This document shows, piece after piece, positions 1,955 through 60,289 of a DNA stretch of 64,000 nucleotides. A program made the position numbers and the translations under genes. This DNA is from Leucoraja ocellata (taxonomy: Eukaryota), in the NCBI GenBank assembly GCA_036785375.1, contig JAWMAR010000008.1:14074001-14138000 (forward strand), written 5' to 3'. The notes under the pieces are model-generated. The model made no database searches and had not been told where the DNA came from. It was given only the letters and a program-made list of their open reading frames with translations. Within the stretch, counting starts at the first letter, position 1. Every line of letters starts with the position of its first letter.

Positions 1955-2050
1955 AAAGGTACACAAAAATGCTGGAGAAACTCAGCGGGTGCAGCAGCAT
2001 CTATTGAGCGAAGGAGATAGGCAACGTTTCGGGCCGAAACCCTTCTCCAG
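1955..2050 (-). mobile_element. Penelope-like terminal-repeat relic with mutated hammerhead core
   Basis: Near-identical to 16524-16615. The minus strand reads CTGGAGA-agggtttcggccc-GAAACGTT. Confidence 0.7.
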
Positions 2051-3035
2051 AATAAAGTACATTTAAGTGACCAGGCTTTGCACTATAAAGATCACCAAAT
2101 TGGACAATTGTGGCCACTGAATGGGAAGCGTTTACAAAAGAAGTTGAGAAAAGCAGAGGTAAAAATAACTTGGGTGTTACCTAGACTGCATGGGGTTAAA
2201 TTCTGACTGTGGATAAGAATAATAATGAAAAACAAATGGGATGTCATGATTATCATTAAGGAACAGCTCAGTTTAAGAATTTGTAGCTGTCTATCATTTT
2301 GTTGAAGTATTAGCATCCTGTCAGTTGTTTGGTTACATTATCTGTCCAAGTGGAGATGAAAGTCCCCAGCTGACTACTCACAGAGGATCTGCACGGAACC
2401 TCATAGGCTGCTGTAGTTAGCTAGTGATCAGATGTCTGCATTAGCAGTCATTATATTTGATTAGAGTTGACCTTTGTCCTCTTGGGTCAGCGAACAAATA
2501 CCCAGTGACTACTTTTTCCTCTCTCCAAGCAGGGTACCTGGATAGTGCTTTTACCTTTTTTTGCCACAGTGTAGGAGGTTATGGATTTTTTTGCAAAGCT
2601 TGTTTTGAGATCTCTGCAACTATCTTGCAGAATAAAATGTTCTGGTAAATGTGGAATCAGGTTCTGTTTATCTTCAAAACTAAAACAAGTATTCCCCATC
2701 ACTGAAAGGGTTCAAAATAAACAAACAGTAAATATGAATCAAATTAGAATCAGACTTAAATGTACAAGAGCTATCCATTCTTTGCAAAATGTGAACAAAA
2801 GATCTTTGAGTTTGGCATAACTTCTTAACTTGCTTATTACTTTCCTCCCTTTCTCTGCAGTTCAAATTCCACCTTCATTTAGCTGCCTATTTGCTGTGTG
2901 TGAATGTTGCTGGGACTCAACGCTGGCTGTTGCCCATGGTGCAGGGGGTTGGTTTGGTTGTAGGGAACATAATGCCTCAACCTGACCCAAATTATTTCCC
3001 ATATTTCCACAATTTCCAGTTGGTATTGATGGTTT

Positions 3036-3727: not shown

Positions 3728-3867
3728 TTTTTTTCCCCCATACCCTCCCCCCCCCCCCACCCCCGACATCAGTCTGAAGAAGGGTCTCGACCCCCTCCAT
3801 CGCCTATTCCATCGCTCCATAGATGCTGCCTCACCCGCTGAGTTTCTCCAGCATTTATGTCTACCTT
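3728..3867 (+). mobile_element. Short Penelope-like terminal-repeat insertion with 13-bp TSD
   Basis: Contains CTGAAGAagggtctcgaccc (from 3774) and agatgctgcctcacccgctgagtttctccagca. Flanked by caattgtcaattg (3715-3727) and caattgtcaactg (3868-3880). Confidence 0.75.
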
Positions 3868-4687
3868 CAATTGTCAACTGATGTGTTCTCGCACACTATC
3901 GCACTAATGACTGCTGAAGGCAGTGCAACCTTGGGATCTCTTTGTCCGAGCTCCACATCATAGGGAGAGATAAACGGCAGTCTGCCGAAAACCCGATTAA
4001 AAATGGGAAGAGAAAATCCGTACTCCGGTATTCGGATGTTTTGAGAAAATCTGCATTCCTGAGAAGTGATACTTTTTTTGTTGGCAAGTCATTATTCTAA
4101 AACAAGATTCAGCTTGTGTTGAGGTTATACAGCCTGCCTTCTACAGACACCCACATGCCGCCTTAGCAAAAGGCTCAATGTTATTCGGAGCACATTAAGT
4201 TCAATTACGAAATAATTTAAAATATTTACGTTATGGTTCCATAGAACCATTTCAATTTCTAAGTCCTTTTTGAATTGTTTTCTATTTATGCCTTAGTCGA
4301 CTTTGGCTAATTTTCCCTGGGTGGTGGGCAGTCCCTAATTACTCACTCAGCAGTTCATTATTCCTGAGAGAGCCTGCCAGTGAGAATTGACTTCAGGGTA
4401 TATCAGCTGATTTTACTCTATCGCCAAAGCCTTTTGAGCTGAAGACCATTCGAATGAAGAAGGATGGACATTTCATGCATTATGTTTGAATGAAACCATT
4501 GGTTCTGTAACCCAGATCTAATCCTCCTGCATTCTCCTCATAACCTTGAATCCTTCATCGCTAGAAATATCTGCCATCCTCCTGTTTTAACACATGTCCG
4601 TGCCTCAATCACAATGCACTGCGACGTTCCCGCAAGGGATCAATAAATAGCAAATGTGAAAGAAAGGAAAACACACATTTTTGCTCA

Positions 4688-16460: not shown

Positions 16461-16489
16461 AATACCTGAGACTGGTTATCAATAATTTA

Positions 16490-16712
16490 TTTAAGAAGGA
16501 ACTGCAGATGCTGGAAAATCGAAGGTACACAAAAATGCTGGAAAAACTCAGCGGGTGCAGCAGCATCTATGGAGCGAAGGAAATAGGTAACGTTTCGGGC
16601 CAAAACCCTTCTTCAGACTGAAGAAGAAGGGTTTCGGCCCGAAACGTTACCTATTTCCTTCGCTCCATAGATGCTGCTGCACCCGCTGAGTTTCTCCAGC
16701 ATTTTTGTGTAC
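16490..16712. mobile_element. Palindromic Penelope-like terminal-repeat insertion with two opposed hammerhead motifs
   Basis: About 95-bp inverted arms (16524-16617 vs 16618-16712). TSD tatcaataattta (16477-16489) / tatcaacaattta (16713-16725). Confidence 0.85.
16583..16620 (-). ncRNA. Minimal hammerhead ribozyme motif (Penelope type)
   Basis: The minus strand reads cagt-CUGAAGA-a-GGGuuuugGCCC-GAAACGUU-accuau: CUGANGA core, stem II, GAAA and a palindromic mini stem III. Confidence 0.65.
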
Positions 16713-17169
16713 TATCAACAATTTAGTTCAGTTTAATTTAGTTTGTTGTCACGTGTACCAAGGTACAGTGAAAAGCTTTTGTTGCATGCTAATCACTTAG
16801 CGGAAAGACCACACATGATTACAATTGAGCCAACCACAGTGCACAGATACACTATAAAGGAAAAAACGCTAAATTCCAGTGATGTCCAATTAAAGATAGT
16901 CCAAAGGTCTACCAGAGGGTGAGGGAAATAACTGGATATTAGGGAATGGAGGGGAATGGAGGTGGATGGGAAGATGGTGCTGAAGTAATCATGACCTTGT
17001 GTAATGGAACAGATTCAAGGGGATGCATGAACTCCTTGTGCTCCTGCCACTTTTTCTTATGTTGGCCTTTACATATAGTGAATTTACCAGTGATCTGTGT
17101 TTAATGTAGTATTCGCAGATATATGGTGTTCATAGATGTTCGTTCTGCTGACTTGACTTTTTAACATGA

Positions 17170-17382
<213 letters not shown>

Positions 17383-17777: not shown

Positions 17778-17980
17778 AGATAGACACAAAGTGCTGGAGT
17801 AAATCAATGGGTCAGGCAGCATCATTGGAGATAAAGGATAGGTGACGTTTCAGGTTGGGATCCTTATTCGGATTCGTAATGTCTCCTATCCTTTTTTTTC
17901 CAGAGATGCTGCCTGACCCGCTGAGTTACTCCATCACTTTGTGTATATCTTTGTCTAAACCTGCATCTGCAGTTCCTACC
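17778..17980. mobile_element. Inverted pair of Penelope-like terminal-repeat relics
   Basis: gtgctggagtaaatcaatgggtcaggcagcatc is the reverse complement of gatgctgcctgacccgctgagttactcca. The centre is decayed. Confidence 0.7.
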
Positions 17981-25675: not shown

Positions 25676-27567
25676 GGGCATCTCTAACAAGGCCATCAGT
25701 TATTGCGCATCCTTAATTACCAGAGAAAGTGGTGGCCAACTACCTTCTTGAACCACTGTAGTACTTCTAGTAGAGATATTCTTCCACTGTCATTGAAAAT
25801 GGAGTTTCAGGATTTACACCTAGCTATGACAAATATCCTTCAATATATATATTCAAAGTCACGATAGTGTATGACTTGGAGAGGAACTGCAGATATTGGT
25901 ATTCCCATGTGCCTGGTGAGTTTCTTGGTTGTGGAGATTTGGAAGATGATATTAGAGTCTCCTGGGTAGGTAACTATAATCTATTTGTATAAATATATAT
26001 ACTGCAGCCACGATGTGATGGTGGTGGAGTGAAGGGGTGTTTAGGACTCATTGGCAGATTGCCTTGTCCCGGTGATTTTTGCCCAATCTATCAGCTCCAA
26101 GTCCCCAACACAATTATCTTTCATCCACTGCTTTAGTTTGTTCAGTATATTGATATAAAAATGCACAAATGCTTTAGCTAGTTCAGTATATTGACGTGAA
26201 CTATTCAAAAGTTAGTAAATTTATGTAAATAGAAATGAAACGCAATCTAGACCAAAATCACAATATACCACTGATGAATTATTGTAGTTACCATTCTTAA
26301 AGACAATTATACAACCATGAATCCCTTTTCACATGTTTAGATATTAACAATTTCTTAGTAATGTACAGGGAAGAGGAGACCGTTTTTGTTTGTAACCTCA
26401 CCAATATTTGATCTAACCAAAAGCAGATTAACTAATTGATCATCTCTGCTGTAAAATTGCTCGAAATATAATGGCCGCTGCACTCCGTTACATTGATTTG
26501 AAAGTGCGTTGAGTCACTATGACATTATAATAAGGTTTTCAAGGAGAAAGAAATACAAATGTTCGTCATGAGCTTAAAGCAACTGTTTTGTTCAGAAACC
26601 ATCTGGTAATTAACATTTTACAGTTTGGGATATATCCTCTTCTCTGTTGTATCTCTTGTGATCCTCTCCTGAAGACAATGTTGGAAACAGCTCAAGTCGT
26701 AAAAAAAATATGAGTATCTTAGTGTATGCCACAGAATTTTGTCAGGACTGATCACAATTCTCTCCCCACACAAGGTGCATCTGTAATGTAGATTAGTGAT
26801 CTGGACATGGATTCTGGACAGGGCACAGGAAGTATCATTATACCATCACTGGCACCTTGGCCAAGATCATTCAATCAGCTGTGTTAGCACATATGAGCAG
26901 TTGTGTAAAAAAACACACAGATTTTCTCAGTTTAATTCTCCATTTGTTATATATGCCATTTTTGTACCCTTTATTCATTAACTTTGATTGAGATCATATT
27001 AATATTCAATTATCAAGGTAGAAATTATCCCCATGTATCTGGAAGGTTAAAAAATAACTTATTCACCTGACCTGATTGTATTTAATGAATTATTTTGTAT
27101 TTAAAAGTATTTTAAATGATTAGCATTTTGTTATTTAAATATTTGGCATTAATTGTCATTAATTGACTGAAGTAGTCTTTAAAATCTGCCGTCTTTTGAT
27201 GGTGATAATTTCGACAGGCAAGGTTTATGCACTATGAACTCAGCACTATGAACATTGATTTTGTGGTTTCCTCACCGATTTATGACAGGGCTTGCATATT
27301 GAATCTGATAATTGACTTTACTTCCATCATATTATAATTATGAGGTGTTAAGTAAAGAACTAAGAGGGATCTTTTAAATGAAAGCATTTAAAAAAAATTA
27401 CTGTAAAGACAGGAATATAGGATTTCAGGCAGAATTAGGGTCACGCTCTAAGAATCATTAAAATCAATGTACAATAGAATCAACTATTTGAACTCTGTTA
27501 TTGTAAAGAATAAAGAAGCCAAGAATTGCTTCACAGCAGTGAGAATTTAAAGTAATTTCAAAACTAT

Positions 27568-27663
27568 GGTAGACAAAAATGCTGGAGAACCTCAGCGGGT
27601 GAGGCAGCATCGATGGAACGAAGGAAATGGGCAACGTTTTGGGTCGAAACCCTTCTTCAGACT
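27568..27663 (-). mobile_element. Penelope-like terminal-repeat relic with hammerhead core (GAAA mutated to AAAA)
   Basis: The minus strand reads agtCTGAAGAagggtttcgacccAAAACGTTgcc. Confidence 0.7.
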
Positions 27664-41292: not shown

Positions 41293-41420
41293 TCAAGGGT
41301 TTTGACCAGAAACGTTGCCTATTTCCTTCGCTCCATAGATGCTGCTGCACCCGCTGAGTTTCTCCAGCATGTTTGTGTACCTTCAATTTTCCAGCATCTG
41401 CAGTTCCTTCTTAAACACTT
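41293..41420 (+). mobile_element. Penelope-like terminal-repeat relic
   Basis: gaaacgttgcctatttccttcgctccatagatgctgctgcacccgctgag is near-identical to 16641-16712. CUGANGA is absent. Confidence 0.75.
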
Positions 41421-47300: not shown

Positions 47301-48400
47301 GGGGAAATTCTTCCTGTCACTATTCTACTCTTGGCGTCTATATGTAGTTCTCTTTGTAGGAGCTTGGTGTGCAGTGTGGCTGCATTTCTCACTTCAAAAG
47401 AAAAAGGACTTCAGTGGCCTGTAAAGCACTTTAGGATGTCATAGTTGGGAAAGGCTCACTGTACTCTTTCATTATGAATTAAGTAAATTCAGAGTCTCTT
47501 CCGCTCATGTTGACAGTATCACTTTGTACAAACCATCTGCCACAATGAACTACTGATCTAGTTTGCAGCAAAATTATTTATTGTAGTAAGCAATGTTTCA
47601 CTGTTACAAGGTGCCAAATTAAAACTTGCATTGTTTTAAATGAATGGGTACTGCCTTTAGCCCCAAATGTTTCACTATACTTGTTGCTTGGCATTAAATC
47701 AGTACCCTCATATCAGAAGAAGTAAGTTCCTAACCATGTCCATAGAAAGATTTATTTAAAAGTCCACAGAACAACAGAAATAGTAAAATTCCTGGATCTT
47801 GGATGGGGGAAAAGTGAAACTTTCACTTATATGACGAGGTAAGGATAACATTACAGAAAATAATAGCTCATCAGTTTGTTGAACCATATCGTTTCAAATG
47901 AGATGTGCTAATACAAATCAGGACTTGCATATTGACCCCTGCGGGTGAGCTGGTAAACTGAAGGGAGGGACAAATTCAGGGACATGCAGGGACAAATTAA
48001 AAGATGTAACAGCACCCTCTGCAACATGTCAGTGTCTTCTCACGTTGTTCTACCCAACACATCAAACACTACCCACCATAAATATAGATTCAGTCACTTT
48101 ATCCTGTTGTGTGAGACATTTTAAAGTGAAGGTCATGTCAAAATGAAGGCCTGAAGAAAATTTAACCACAAGAAAGTAAGAGGCAGAGGAGGAAACCTGG
48201 CCCATCAAGCCTGTGCCGCTATTCAGTATGATCATACTTGAGCTAGCTCATATTTTAAATACCTCCAGTGATCTCGCTTCCACAAGCCTCTGTGATACAG
48301 AATTCCTGGGATAGGTTACCCTTGATATTCAGAATCTTTGAAGAGTTTTGCGAGAATAACTGACAAAACTGTTTGTAGAGCCAGAATGGTCAGTAACATA

Positions 48401-49190
48401 AAGGGCCTGACCCACTTAGGAAACCTCCACAGCAACGTCTGGAGACCTTGCCCGCCACCCATGGTCGCTGCAAGGTCGTCACGAGGTCACAGGAGGTTTT
48501 GGTCACTCTCCCGAATGGTCGAAAGTGGTTTCCGCGTGGTCGAGGCTTCATCGAGGTCGCTGCTTTTTTTTCATCATGATGAAAACCGGCCTCGACTAAA
48601 AATAGGTCACCGTTTGGTCGAAACCAGTGGTGTGGGGTCGCTATTTACATATAGGCAGTCGAAGGCAATCTCCTTCACTGACCAGCCATTTTGATTGGCT
48701 CATTGAAGTTTCACGCCCTAGAAGACCCACCGGTAGGTAAAATGTCGCTAACTTTATTAAACTTCTTAAAACTCTCCACTCCTTCTCCCCCTTCTCCTCC
48801 TCTTCTCCCCCCTTCTCTCCCCTTCTCTCTCCCTTCTCTCTCCCATCTCTCTCCCTTCTCCCTCTCCTCTCTATCCCTTCTCCCCCCCCCCGCGCTCTCT
48901 AAAGGATTTACCGTACTCTGTGGCAGCCCTTTACCTTCATCTTCATCGCGCAGACAGCGCTACTCCGCTCTCCATGGCCCCCACCTTCGCGGCGTGTGTG
49001 TGTGCACGCGGTCTGTGGATGCAGCTCGCGGTTTCAACGCGGCTGGTCGATCCAGCTCGAGGCTTTCCAGGCGAGTGCCCTTGAGTGACCAAAACCTCCT
49101 GTGACCTTGTGGCGACCTTGCAGCAACCATGGGTGGCGGGTAAGGTCTCCAGAGGTTGCTGTGGAGGTCTCCTAAGTGGGACAGCTCCTT
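48401..49190. mobile_element. MITE / non-autonomous DNA transposon with ~105-bp TIRs
   Basis: ta|AAGGGCCTGACCCACTTAGGAAACCTCCACAGCAAC…GTTGCTGTGGAGGTCTCCTAAGTGGGACAGCTCCTT|ta. CT-rich interior. Confidence 0.85.
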
Positions 49191-50758
49191 TAGGATATAG
49201 ATAAGACAATTAGTGAAAGACCCAGAGGTAACATACAATGTTTTAAAACAATGAGTCATTGTGATCTTGAATACACTATCAGAAAGGGAAATGGAAGCAG
49301 ATTCAATTGTAACTTTTAATAACCCAACTTTGATTGGGTTGACAGTTACAGCCAAGTCCGTCCATTGCCATGCCCTCTTCAGTCCAAGAACATGTGAACA
49401 GACATCCCAGAGTGCAGCGTTGCCATGCTCTTCACCTGTCAGCCATTTTCCCTGGCGCACTGCATTGTGTGGAGGAACAGCGAACATGGCTAACTCCTTA
49501 AAATGATTCCTCGACCTTCCCCACTTCCACTAAGTCACCCTGCTTTAACCCATTATCCCCACTGAACTTCTCCCACACCTCCTTTCGCCAATGAGCTGCG
49601 ATGCTGGAATCTCATCCCTTTCTCTGAGTTCAAGTTGAAGAATAGCTTTTTCCCATCGACCAACAGGCTATTGAACCACACTGCATAACCCTAACCACAA
49701 TCCTTCCTCAGCAACAAACTACTATAGAATTTTTATAGGTTACACTATGTACTTCAGCTTGCACTACTGTAGTCTGGTTTCCGAGTGTAACAAATAATTT
49801 ATTGCATTATTGTCTATTTATTTGTTGTATTGCTGTGTTAATGTGCCTGTAAATTTGTAAGTAAAAATGTAAATTTTCTGTTCCTGGTGCACGTGACAAT
49901 TGAATACTCTTGACTCTTGCATAAGCACTGAACATCTACGGATATTGCAAATCTTTATTCAGTTGATTTATTCCAATTATTTTGTGTCCTATATGTTGTT
50001 CGGATGCCTTTTATTCGAATGCCACAATCTCAGGTTGGAGCAAGCTGGAATTGTAGTTAGGACTTTGCTGATCTGAATGGCTCAACAATGTATGTGCCAT
50101 ACATTTAGCCATTGAACATGTGACAATGCCCGATCCAGTTCGGTGTCTGCATGTTGCTCGTAAATACTCTTATCTTTATATCATCACTCAGCGCATGTTC
50201 TACTGCTCTGCTTATTGTCTCTCCTTGCCATTATTGTTATTTTAAATTTGGTACTGGAGGTAATTTTGAAGGGTTTCTGTTGTGACTATCTCCTCACATA
50301 TTTTTTTGCCAAACCCTGGCAGGAAGCTGAAGATTATATTTGTCTGGCCCCTTCTATAAGTGTACGTCTGATGTGAAACAGGATGCGAAAAAAACATGTT
50401 TTTATCTCCTTAATGAATGTGACAAGATCCACATTTTTTCCACTATGAGATTCAGTGCAGAAAAATTTCAGTTGGATTCATATTTTTTGACGTCTCTCCA
50501 AAAAGGTTGGCTCAGGGTGTTTGCAACAGTTACACAGTTCTATTTTTAAATTTAGAATTGGCTTTCAACTTCCTAATAAAATTATTTTTCGTAGCCCTTT
50601 CACCCTCTTTATTATTAGAATAATGTACTGTAGTAGCTTTAGATTTTCATAGTCCTGACGGCCATTACCATTGAAGGCTCTGTGACTTCAAGTTTGGAGA
50701 AATTACCAAAGTCCAGAGCTCATGTAATAAATGAGAAAAAAAATCTGAGTGTATGCGT

Positions 50759-59545: not shown

Positions 59546-59810
59546 TCTTTGACTGTGTCACGCCAAGTTACCTATGTGTGCTAAATTTAGTTTGCCTAAT
59601 ATTGGGTGGAGCAATTGCTCATTATAGACTGTTTTCTGCTGCATGTGGACTAGGACTGGTGACGGATAATAATTAGGGATACCTTGACGCAGCAGATGTG
59701 TTTATTGTTTGTGCTCAATAGTTCTGATTTTACAGAATGCAATTGCTACGTTAACAATTGCCACCCTATTTACAGGTTTTGCAGGCAATCTTAGGACGTC
59801 AGATGTGTAA

Positions 59811-60037
59811 TGCCCCTGTCCCACTTAGGAAACCTGAACGGAAACCTCTGGAGGCTTTGCGCCCCACCCAAGGTTTCCGTGCGGTTCCCGGAGGTTGCAG
59901 GTGGTTGCCGGAGGTTGCAGGTAGTGGAAGGGAGACTGACAAAAACCTCTGGGAACCTCCAGGAACCGCACGGAAACCTTGGGTGGGGCGCAAAGTCTCC
60001 AGAGGTTTCCGTTCAGGTTTCCTAAGTGGGACGGGCA
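59811..60037. mobile_element. Near-perfectly palindromic MITE (227 bp), TAA TSD, PIF/Harbinger-like
   Basis: taa|TGCCCCTGTCCCACTTAGGAAACCTGAACGGAAACCTCTGGAG…CTCCAGAGGTTTCCGTTCAGGTTTCCTAAGTGGGACGGGCA|taa. Confidence 0.88.
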
Positions 60038-60289
60038 TAAATGAGTTAGGACTTTCAAAGTGTTTCATGACATTTCAGGAGTACAGTGGTGCCCATTGAA
60101 TATGTTTGCATACTTTAGGATTTAACAACAGAGGAGAAAGCCTAGCACTCTGTAGCACCTTAGGAAATCTTGGAAGTTGCACCATAAAATGGCATTGGAT
60201 CCATGCAGATCAAATCCAATTACAAATGCAATGAACCAGCTGTTGATTATTATAAATTAGAAACTATTTGATTTCAGATTTTCAGGATT

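What the first reader, a model, noticed from the sequence alone, without database searches (positions are those of the whole stretch)
16477..16725. Self-complementary mini-retroelement carrying back-to-back hammerhead ribozyme cores
Seen: a 223-bp insert between 13-bp TSDs, made largely of ~95-bp inverted arms. A CUGAAGA-stem II-GAAACGUU core reads outward from the centre on each strand; the plus copy has a GGG-U-UUCG-G-CCC stem and an extra AGA. Known: Penelope-like elements carry minimal hammerheads with a palindromic stem III that are thought to cleave as dimers, and they often insert with an inverted terminal-repeat copy. Inference: this ORF-less unit and its relatives may be a non-autonomous, retrozyme-like family in elasmobranchs, with ribozyme potential in both polarities.
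Basis: partly seen in the sequence, partly recalled or inferred. Interest (0 to 1): 0.7.

Follow-up and report, generated by a model that had tools for sequence, protein, structure and literature searches.

The report
Mirror-image Penelope stump with spreading centres
This DNA hairpin is two back-to-back tail ends of a very common Penelope-type jumping gene, likely joined as it landed, with self-cutting RNA motifs predicted to be locked shut; elsewhere in the genome one kind of hairpin centre sits in tight local clusters and has likely been copied from one old insertion into its neighbours.

Summary
In detail: a 223-bp insert, a 13-bp target duplication (12/13), 90-bp arms and a hammerhead core on each strand. 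It is not a retrozyme. It is the 3' end (pLTR, hammerhead, 35-nt tail) of an abundant RT + GIY-YIG Penelope-like element, inserted head to head. Of 84 independent copies picked by the tail alone, 47 are palindromes with 39 different junctions, and 3 of the 47 keep two cores. This unit's exact centre occurs 3 times in the genome; the clean two-core centre 921 times; a core-less one 2,323 times. The hairpin costs 34-38 kcal/mol to open into a hammerhead, and the plus copy has lost stem I. Twin priming from the element's two RT start sites fits best (inferred). The scan found this before on other DNA. New here, outside the window: a core-less centre (1,395 hits) lies in megabase clusters, with cluster-specific cassettes inside stumps of different subfamilies. 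This looks like local copying between existing insertions; it was not checked in reads.

The parts
16477..16489 (.). Left target-site duplication
   Evidence: 12 of 13 alike to 16713-16725
16490..16524 (-). One-sided 35-nt tail: the stretch between the two fixed outer ends of the parent PLE (by analogy its two RT start sites)
   Evidence: continues into the ORF start in tandem parents L188, L198-L200; PMC11167929
16525..16614 (-). Left arm: pLTR 3' part, sense on the minus strand
   Evidence: I1, 90 nt, 98%; matches the pLTR of long copy L121
16589..16616 (-). Minimal hammerhead motif, minus strand; stem II with UUUG loop, stem I 2 bp; predicted cut after GUU at 16589
   Evidence: P(stem II) about 0 in the unit, 38.2 kcal/mol to open
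16610..16628 (.). Head-to-head junction on the self-complementary CAG-A-CTG motif, with one extra 3-nt repeat
   Evidence: 3 exact copies in the genome; 921 without the extra repeat
16618..16648 (+). Minimal hammerhead motif, plus strand; 3 extra bases after the core, first stem I pair lost; predicted cut after GUU at 16648
   Evidence: 33.7 kcal/mol to open
16623..16712 (+). Right arm: pLTR 3' part ending at the short outer end (no tail)
16713..16725 (.). Right target-site duplication
41295..41415 (+). Single-arm, tail-bearing stump of the same young family, 95% alike
1956..2057 (-). Single-arm stump with the short end, 92% alike
27560..27663 (-). Single-arm stump, 86% alike
3769..3875 (+). 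Single-arm stump with part of the pyrimidine-rich pLTR, 82% alike
17778..17977 (.). Older palindromic stump of a related subfamily, tail on one side, no whole core

Best explanation
The unit is two 5'-truncated 3' ends of an abundant endonuclease-bearing Penelope-like element joined head to head, most likely during one insertion, and its hammerhead motifs are predicted to be inactive passengers. Shown: parent with RT and GIY-YIG, same two outer ends in short and long copies, variable junctions enriched at self-complementary motifs. Inferred (about 0.6): the endonuclease nicks both target strands 10-17 nt apart, each 3' end primes reverse transcription at one of the two internal start sites 35 nt apart, both cDNAs usually stop in or just past the hammerhead, and their ends anneal by microhomology (here CAG-A-CTG, with one 3-nt slip) and are filled in. 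Centres can also be flipped, collapsed or overwritten later.
For: Parent: copies run from the same arm into an ORF with RVT_1 (E 4.4e-8 in L176, 2.3e-6 in L177) and GIY-YIG (E 6e-4 in L177, below Pfam's cut-off); long copies L175, L181, L184 have an inverted pLTR with tail at one end and the short end at the other. Abundance: 7,285 exact matches of a 34-nt tail word. Sample of the first 90 of these, 84 after dropping 6 flank-sharing duplicates: 47 palindromes, 30 single arms, 7 long; 39 distinct junctions; 3 of 47 with two whole cores, 11 with one, 33 with none. Tail on both arms in 0 of 47; short arm starts at 35-39 in 36 of 47; exact TSD of 10-17 nt in 32 of 47; 21 of 28 clean-centre loci are long+short, 0 long+long. 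Junction overlap of 5 nt or more in 18 of 32 filler-free junctions against 18 of 300 simulated, p 8e-12. L007 carries a copy of its own target site in the centre. Arms of one copy differ by 1.6 of about 75 bases, arms of different copies by 3.6, and share private variants. In vitro, the Anolis PLE protein cuts and extends both strands from two internal start sites that bound the tail, and hammerhead cleavage is not needed (PMC11167929).
Against: 921 copies share one two-core centre, which a palindromic source could also give. Centres change after insertion: duplicates L221/L222 have the loop in opposite orientations, so the 12:9 tail-side split is weak evidence; shared variants between arms could come from later conversion. 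One cassette-bearing locus (L236/L237) has tails on both sides. PMC3846280 reads such junction palindromes as self-priming, not twin priming. No intact full-length parent was shown, no tree was built, and no empty site was seen for this copy.
Confidence: 0.85

Rival explanations
1. The palindrome is a non-autonomous unit that is transcribed and re-inserted whole by the PLE protein.
For: Fixed outer ends and TSDs; 921 identical two-core centres; a palindromic RNA could in principle regenerate both ends.
Against: Only 3 exact copies of this unit's centre, on three contigs, in hosts with different variants; clean-centre copies span 11 tail haplotypes, 3 of them shared with copies that run into the ORF; a core-less centre is commoner (2,323).
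Confidence: 0.08
2. Fold-back (self-priming): one cDNA snaps back on a self-complementary motif and copies itself, and the endonuclease trims the second end at the short site.
For: Junctions sit on self-complementary motifs; arms share private variants; partial fold-backs exist (L066, L112, L146); proposed in PMC3846280.
Against: 15 of 47 junctions carry filler or have arms of unequal length with no hairpin at the turn; the second arm stops at the short end, which in the Anolis element is an RT start site (PMC11167929). This rival changes only the mechanism step, not the identity.
Confidence: 0.3
3. A true retrozyme: RNA from the unit self-cleaves in both polarities and circularises.
For: Core nucleotides are present on both strands; arm RNA is abundant in both orientations in runs of related organisms.
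Against: One core per strand, no same-strand tandem; P(stem II) about 0 and 34-38 kcal/mol penalty; plus copy lacks the first stem I pair; even in the parent context the fold costs 9-11 kcal/mol.
Confidence: 0.03
4. For the clustered core-less cassettes only: an assembly or polishing artefact rather than real local copying.
For: Some C199 copies look error-rich; tandem 23-, 35- and 62-nt repeats inside a highly repeated hairpin are what local reassembly can produce; no reads were laid on them.
Against: Cluster-specific unique markers recur with independent point changes in unrelated flanks on 13-27 Mb contigs; duplicated loci carry them in both copies (L243/L244, L287/L288).
Confidence: 0.15

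Closest known systems
EN+ Penelope-like element insertions with inverted 5'-truncated pLTR, one-sided 30-40 bp tail and TSD (PMC3846280 passages; PMC8557442 passages)
   Same: Head-to-head inverted pLTR, 35-nt tail on one side, TSD, palindrome at the junction, RT then GIY-YIG parent with a CX4CX2C linker as in Neptune/Nematis
   Different: Both arms are only 90-135 nt, no ORF is left, and over half of tail-bearing copies sampled (47 of 84) have this form
Anolis Poseidon element PAc, internal RT initiation (PMC11167929, main text read)
   Same: Tail between two fixed ends; hammerhead about 65-100 nt upstream of them; ORF region follows the tail in tandem copies
   Different: Here the two ends are used once each in one insertion (inferred); no AUG in the core; parent is Neptune-type by motif
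Minimal hammerheads of metazoan PLEs (PMC4209133, main text read)
   Same: Conserved core, extra base before G10.1, G10.1-C11.1 pair, palindromic 15.2-16.2; that paper already notes dual motifs 100-700 bp apart on opposite strands
   Different: Stem II is 4 bp and stem I 2 bp (theirs 7-8 and 4-5; 2 bp in D. virilis); cores overlap at the centre of a perfect hairpin
Non-LTR retrozymes (PMC7229834 passages; bioRxiv 10.64898/2026.07.22.740005 parts 1-2)
   Same: ORF-less, PLE-derived, type I hammerhead motif
   Different: No same-strand tandem units, no route to a circle
Rsp-like satellite inserting into existing 1.688 clusters (PMC7403614 abstract and section 12) and non-allelic gene conversion between TE copies (PMC6598467 passages; PMC4384637 listing only)
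   Same: For the clustered cassettes: new sequence placed inside older related repeats, with distance dependence
   Different: Here the moving piece is a hairpin centre of 30 to several hundred bases, the landing pads are dispersed retroelement stumps, and each 1-3 Mb cluster has its own version

Membership tests
EN+ Penelope-like element insertion | Parent ORF with RT followed by GIY-YIG | tested here: met
   RVT_1 33.5 bits (cut-off 29.6) in L176; GIY-YIG 20.5 bits (cut-off 22.6, not reached) in L177; arm joins the ORF end
EN+ Penelope-like element insertion | pLTR from partial tandem copies | tested here: met
   L188, L198, L199, L200 hold ORF end, whole pLTR, tail, ORF start
EN+ Penelope-like element insertion | Inverted 5'-truncated copy with a 30-40 bp tail on one side and a TSD | tested here: met
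Neptune/Nematis clade | CX2-5CxxC motif between RT and endonuclease | tested here: met
   CNRKKCNTC in L175-L185; motif from PMC8557442
Neptune/Nematis clade | Placement in an RT tree | not tested
Minimal type I hammerhead | Core boxes CUGANGA, GAAA, UH and palindromic stem III | tested here: met
   (both strands)
Minimal type I hammerhead | Stem II with supporting variation | tested here: inconclusive
   of 192 motif hits in all loci, 99 have U-G and 14 or more U-A at the fourth pair; only one-sided changes among the 40 commonest of 46 types shown
Minimal type I hammerhead | Stem I of 4-5 bp | tested here: not met
   2 bp on minus and in the parent; first pair A-A on plus
Minimal type I hammerhead | Self-cleavage | not testable with these tools
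   needs transcription assays
Non-LTR retrozyme | Two or more same-strand tandem units, each with a whole hammerhead | tested here: not met
   one core per strand; definition
Non-LTR retrozyme | Unit-length linear and circular RNA | tested here: inconclusive
   fragmented libraries of other organisms; no back-joint among 15 shown of 313 joints
Independently amplifying non-autonomous unit | Fixed internal structure shared by dispersed copies of one lineage | tested here: not met
   for this unit; a related core-less centre does recur in clusters

The most novel reading that the evidence does not exclude
The hairpin centres of these stumps are themselves a mobile, selfish cassette. A core-less centre and cluster-specific add-ons copy themselves by homology into neighbouring Penelope stumps, old and young, across 1-3 Mb domains, using the dense lattice of stumps as landing pads: a parasite of a retroelement's debris that spreads with neither ORF nor ribozyme.
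Probability: 0.4. Interest if true: 0.72.

Novelty: new member of a known kind. Interest (0 to 1): 0.42.

Why it matters
The unit itself is a known footprint. Two things give it use. First, thousands of near-identical copies record how PLEs finish insertion, a step that is still open: one long and one short end per insertion is what priming from both target strands would leave, and that can be tested with the purified-protein assay of PMC11167929. Second, the clustered cassettes, if confirmed in reads, show sequence spreading between dispersed retroelement copies over megabases, with sharp domains and local lineages; this would be an unusually clear natural record of ectopic copying in a vertebrate germ line, and it warns that junction sequences are not always the original insertion scar.

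Tried and rejected
Rfam: no hammerhead hit; miRNA hits below gathering scores read as hairpin artefacts. DNA search with one arm: empty because common words are skipped; no meaning. Whole-unit search: 40 of 1,090 candidates scored, biased to look-alikes, so not used for frequencies. Tail-side orientation test: 12:9, weakened by post-insertion loop flips. Run search: no RNA holder listed. First read lay covered the ORF start, not the hammerhead, and says nothing on it. Second lay: runs of organisms B and C, mostly under 95% alike; no pile-up of molecule starts or ends at the cut site, but fragmented libraries cannot show cleavage. Cause of the stop zone at the hammerhead's front edge (initiator-like ATCAGTC, splice-acceptor-like CAG after a pyrimidine tract, C-run stall, small hairpin): not resolved. 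Host exon: no PDB hit, Atlas unavailable, unnamed. 'Markers never outside stumps' is partly circular, as the cassette is itself stump-derived, and is not counted as evidence. Paper searches found no paper on this family, on twin priming in PLEs, or on clustered PLE cassettes; the library lacks most subscription papers and Repbase/Dfam were not searchable. Supplements were not read; those of PMC4209133, PMC11167929 and the 2026 preprint may hold chondrichthyan motifs.

Full report
Observation. The fold is far beyond chance. The left arm has 35 extra bases with no partner. Rfam has no hammerhead hit here.

Family. The window holds 12 stump sites of this family; a 34-nt word from the tail occurs 7,285 times in the 3.44-Gb genome. 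Some copies run on from the arm through a pyrimidine-rich stretch into an ORF end. Long copies give open frames of 647 and 682 aa with RT and a GIY-YIG match just under Pfam's cut-off and a CX4CX2C linker, the Neptune/Nematis mark in PMC8557442 (passages). Tandem copies show ORF end, pLTR, hammerhead, tail, ORF start. Long copies L175, L181 and L184 have the same build as the unit: inverted pLTR with tail at one end, short end at the other. The unit is the short end of a size series. The inverted pLTR with a one-sided tail is described in PMC3846280 and PMC8557442 (passages), and opposite-strand motif pairs in PMC4209133 (parts 1-2 of 4 read).

Is the palindrome a fixed unit? I took the first 90 of the 100 listed tail matches (contigs C1, C2), dropped 6 that share flanks with another, and classed 84 by script: 47 palindromes, 30 single arms (L112 is really a partial palindrome), 7 long. 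Inner ends of the tail arm lie between positions 95 and 140 in 70 of 84, the hammerhead and its edges. The 47 palindromes have 39 junction types; 3 keep two whole cores. Genome-wide exact counts: this unit's centre 3, the clean two-core centre 921, a core-less centre 2,323. Filler-free junctions overlap by 5 nt or more in 18 of 32, against 18 of 300 simulated. One centre holds a copy of its own target site (L007). Clean-centre copies span 11 tail haplotypes, 3 shared with copies that run into the ORF. So the favoured centres are best read as the self-complementary spots where two ends can anneal, not as one spreading unit.

Mechanism. The purified Anolis PLE protein cuts and extends both target strands, starts at two internal sites that bound the tail, and needs no hammerhead cleavage (PMC11167929, parts 1-2 of 4 read). 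Here no palindrome of 47, and none of 28 picked by centre, has the tail on both arms; most have one long and one short end. I infer one priming event per strand, one per start site, with the cDNA ends joined by microhomology, like L1 twin priming (recalled, not read). Fold-back self-priming (PMC3846280) remains possible. RNA reads of related organisms show the same three edges (tail end, short end, front of the hammerhead), about equal depth on both strands, and mostly run on into unrelated sequence, as passengers of host transcripts would; they do not test cleavage.

Ribozyme. Each strand has one core, 3' of its own complement. Opening it costs 33.7 (plus) and 38.2 (minus) kcal/mol, against 9-11 in the parent context; the plus copy has three extra bases and an A-A where stem I should begin. 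Retrozymes need same-strand tandem hammerheads. That test fails.

Against a simple reading, and new here. Two sampled copies shared a complex centre with unrelated flanks. It recurs at 43 places, 17 on one contig. Its core, a 4-nt loop without the catalytic box, has 1,395 exact hits; of the first 100 listed, 35 are in C1:20.1-22.5 Mb, 37 in C5:14.8-18.2 Mb, 9 in C6:17.1-19.5 Mb, 10 in C23:3.6-7.9 Mb, and none on C2, C3, C4, C7, C9 or C10, while only 7 of 60 tail matches on C1 fall in that interval. Of 70 loci read (part's output was cut), each cluster has its own add-ons. A C1 marker has 44 of 75 hits within 1.84 Mb and a C23 marker 34 of 54 within 2.65 Mb, nine of them one tandem run; uniform spread would give 0.04. 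In C23 the shared centre sits in hosts of different subfamilies, with their own 16-17-nt TSDs in L309, L310 and L314. In C1 it sits inside old-family stumps, one continuing into its own pLTR (L249); most C1 loci show no TSD over 8 nt. In 200 kb of C1, 24 of 94 stump sites carry cassette parts; in the window 0 of 12. Duplicates also show a flipped loop (L221/L222) and a collapsed palindrome (L097/L098). The simplest account is homology-directed copying between nearby stumps after insertion, as known in kind for Alu conversion (PMC6598467, passages) and Rsp-like satellites (PMC7403614, abstract and section 12). Whether it is driven or neutral, DNA- or RNA-templated, is open, and it was not checked in reads. 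A word search of earlier scan notes found nothing on it, nor did in papers. The window's unit is not part of such a cluster.

Verdict. The unit is a new member of a known kind, noted before by this scan on other DNA (my reading was set before those look-ups). The interest lies in the insertion record and in the clustered cassettes, which deserve their own follow-up.

Noticed in passing
G000:C1:20.1-22.5 Mb (L247-L276, L317-L336), C5:14.8-18.2 Mb (L277-L296), C6:17.1-19.5 Mb (L298-L306), C23:7.1-9.7 Mb (L312-L314), C199 (L230-L246): Core-less hairpin centre with cluster-specific cassettes and 23-, 33-, 35- or 62-nt tandem repeats, placed inside Penelope stumps of different subfamilies; strongly clustered at megabase scale.
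   Followed up: partly
L221 and L222, centre; L097 and L098: Duplicated loci differ at the palindrome centre: loop flipped in one pair, palindrome collapsed in the other.
   Followed up: partly
L121:8560-8675; L188:2395-2450: A pyrimidine-rich tract ending in CAG directly before the hammerhead core looks like a splice acceptor or an initiator; single arms pile up here (15 of 30 end at 131-140).
   Followed up: partly
L189:995-1010; L200 about 2250: A splice-donor-like AAG/GTATGC lies about 35 nt past the tail in tandem parents; with the acceptor-like site it would bound a 170-nt exon holding hammerhead and tail. No such joint among those shown.
   Followed up: partly
window 59810-60038; relatives 48399-48508 and 49083-49192: A different inverted-repeat element (82% arms) with MITE-like ends.
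   Followed up: no
window 17185-17382: Exon-like open frame of 65 codons between AG and GT on the plus strand, so the unit probably lies in an intron; no PDB match, gene unnamed.
   Followed up: partly
window 16581-16656: Rfam mir-722 scores 44-46 bits (gathering 81) and shares AACGUUU on both arms; probably a hairpin effect, but a PLE-palindrome origin of that miRNA was not tested.
   Followed up: no
G000:C1:20.8-21.0 Mb: Stump density 94 per 200 kb at 46.6% GC, against 12 per 64 kb at 40.7% GC in the window.
   Followed up: no
L176:3927-4521: The parent ORF's N-terminal region carries a 27-nt tandem repeat of variable length.
   Followed up: no
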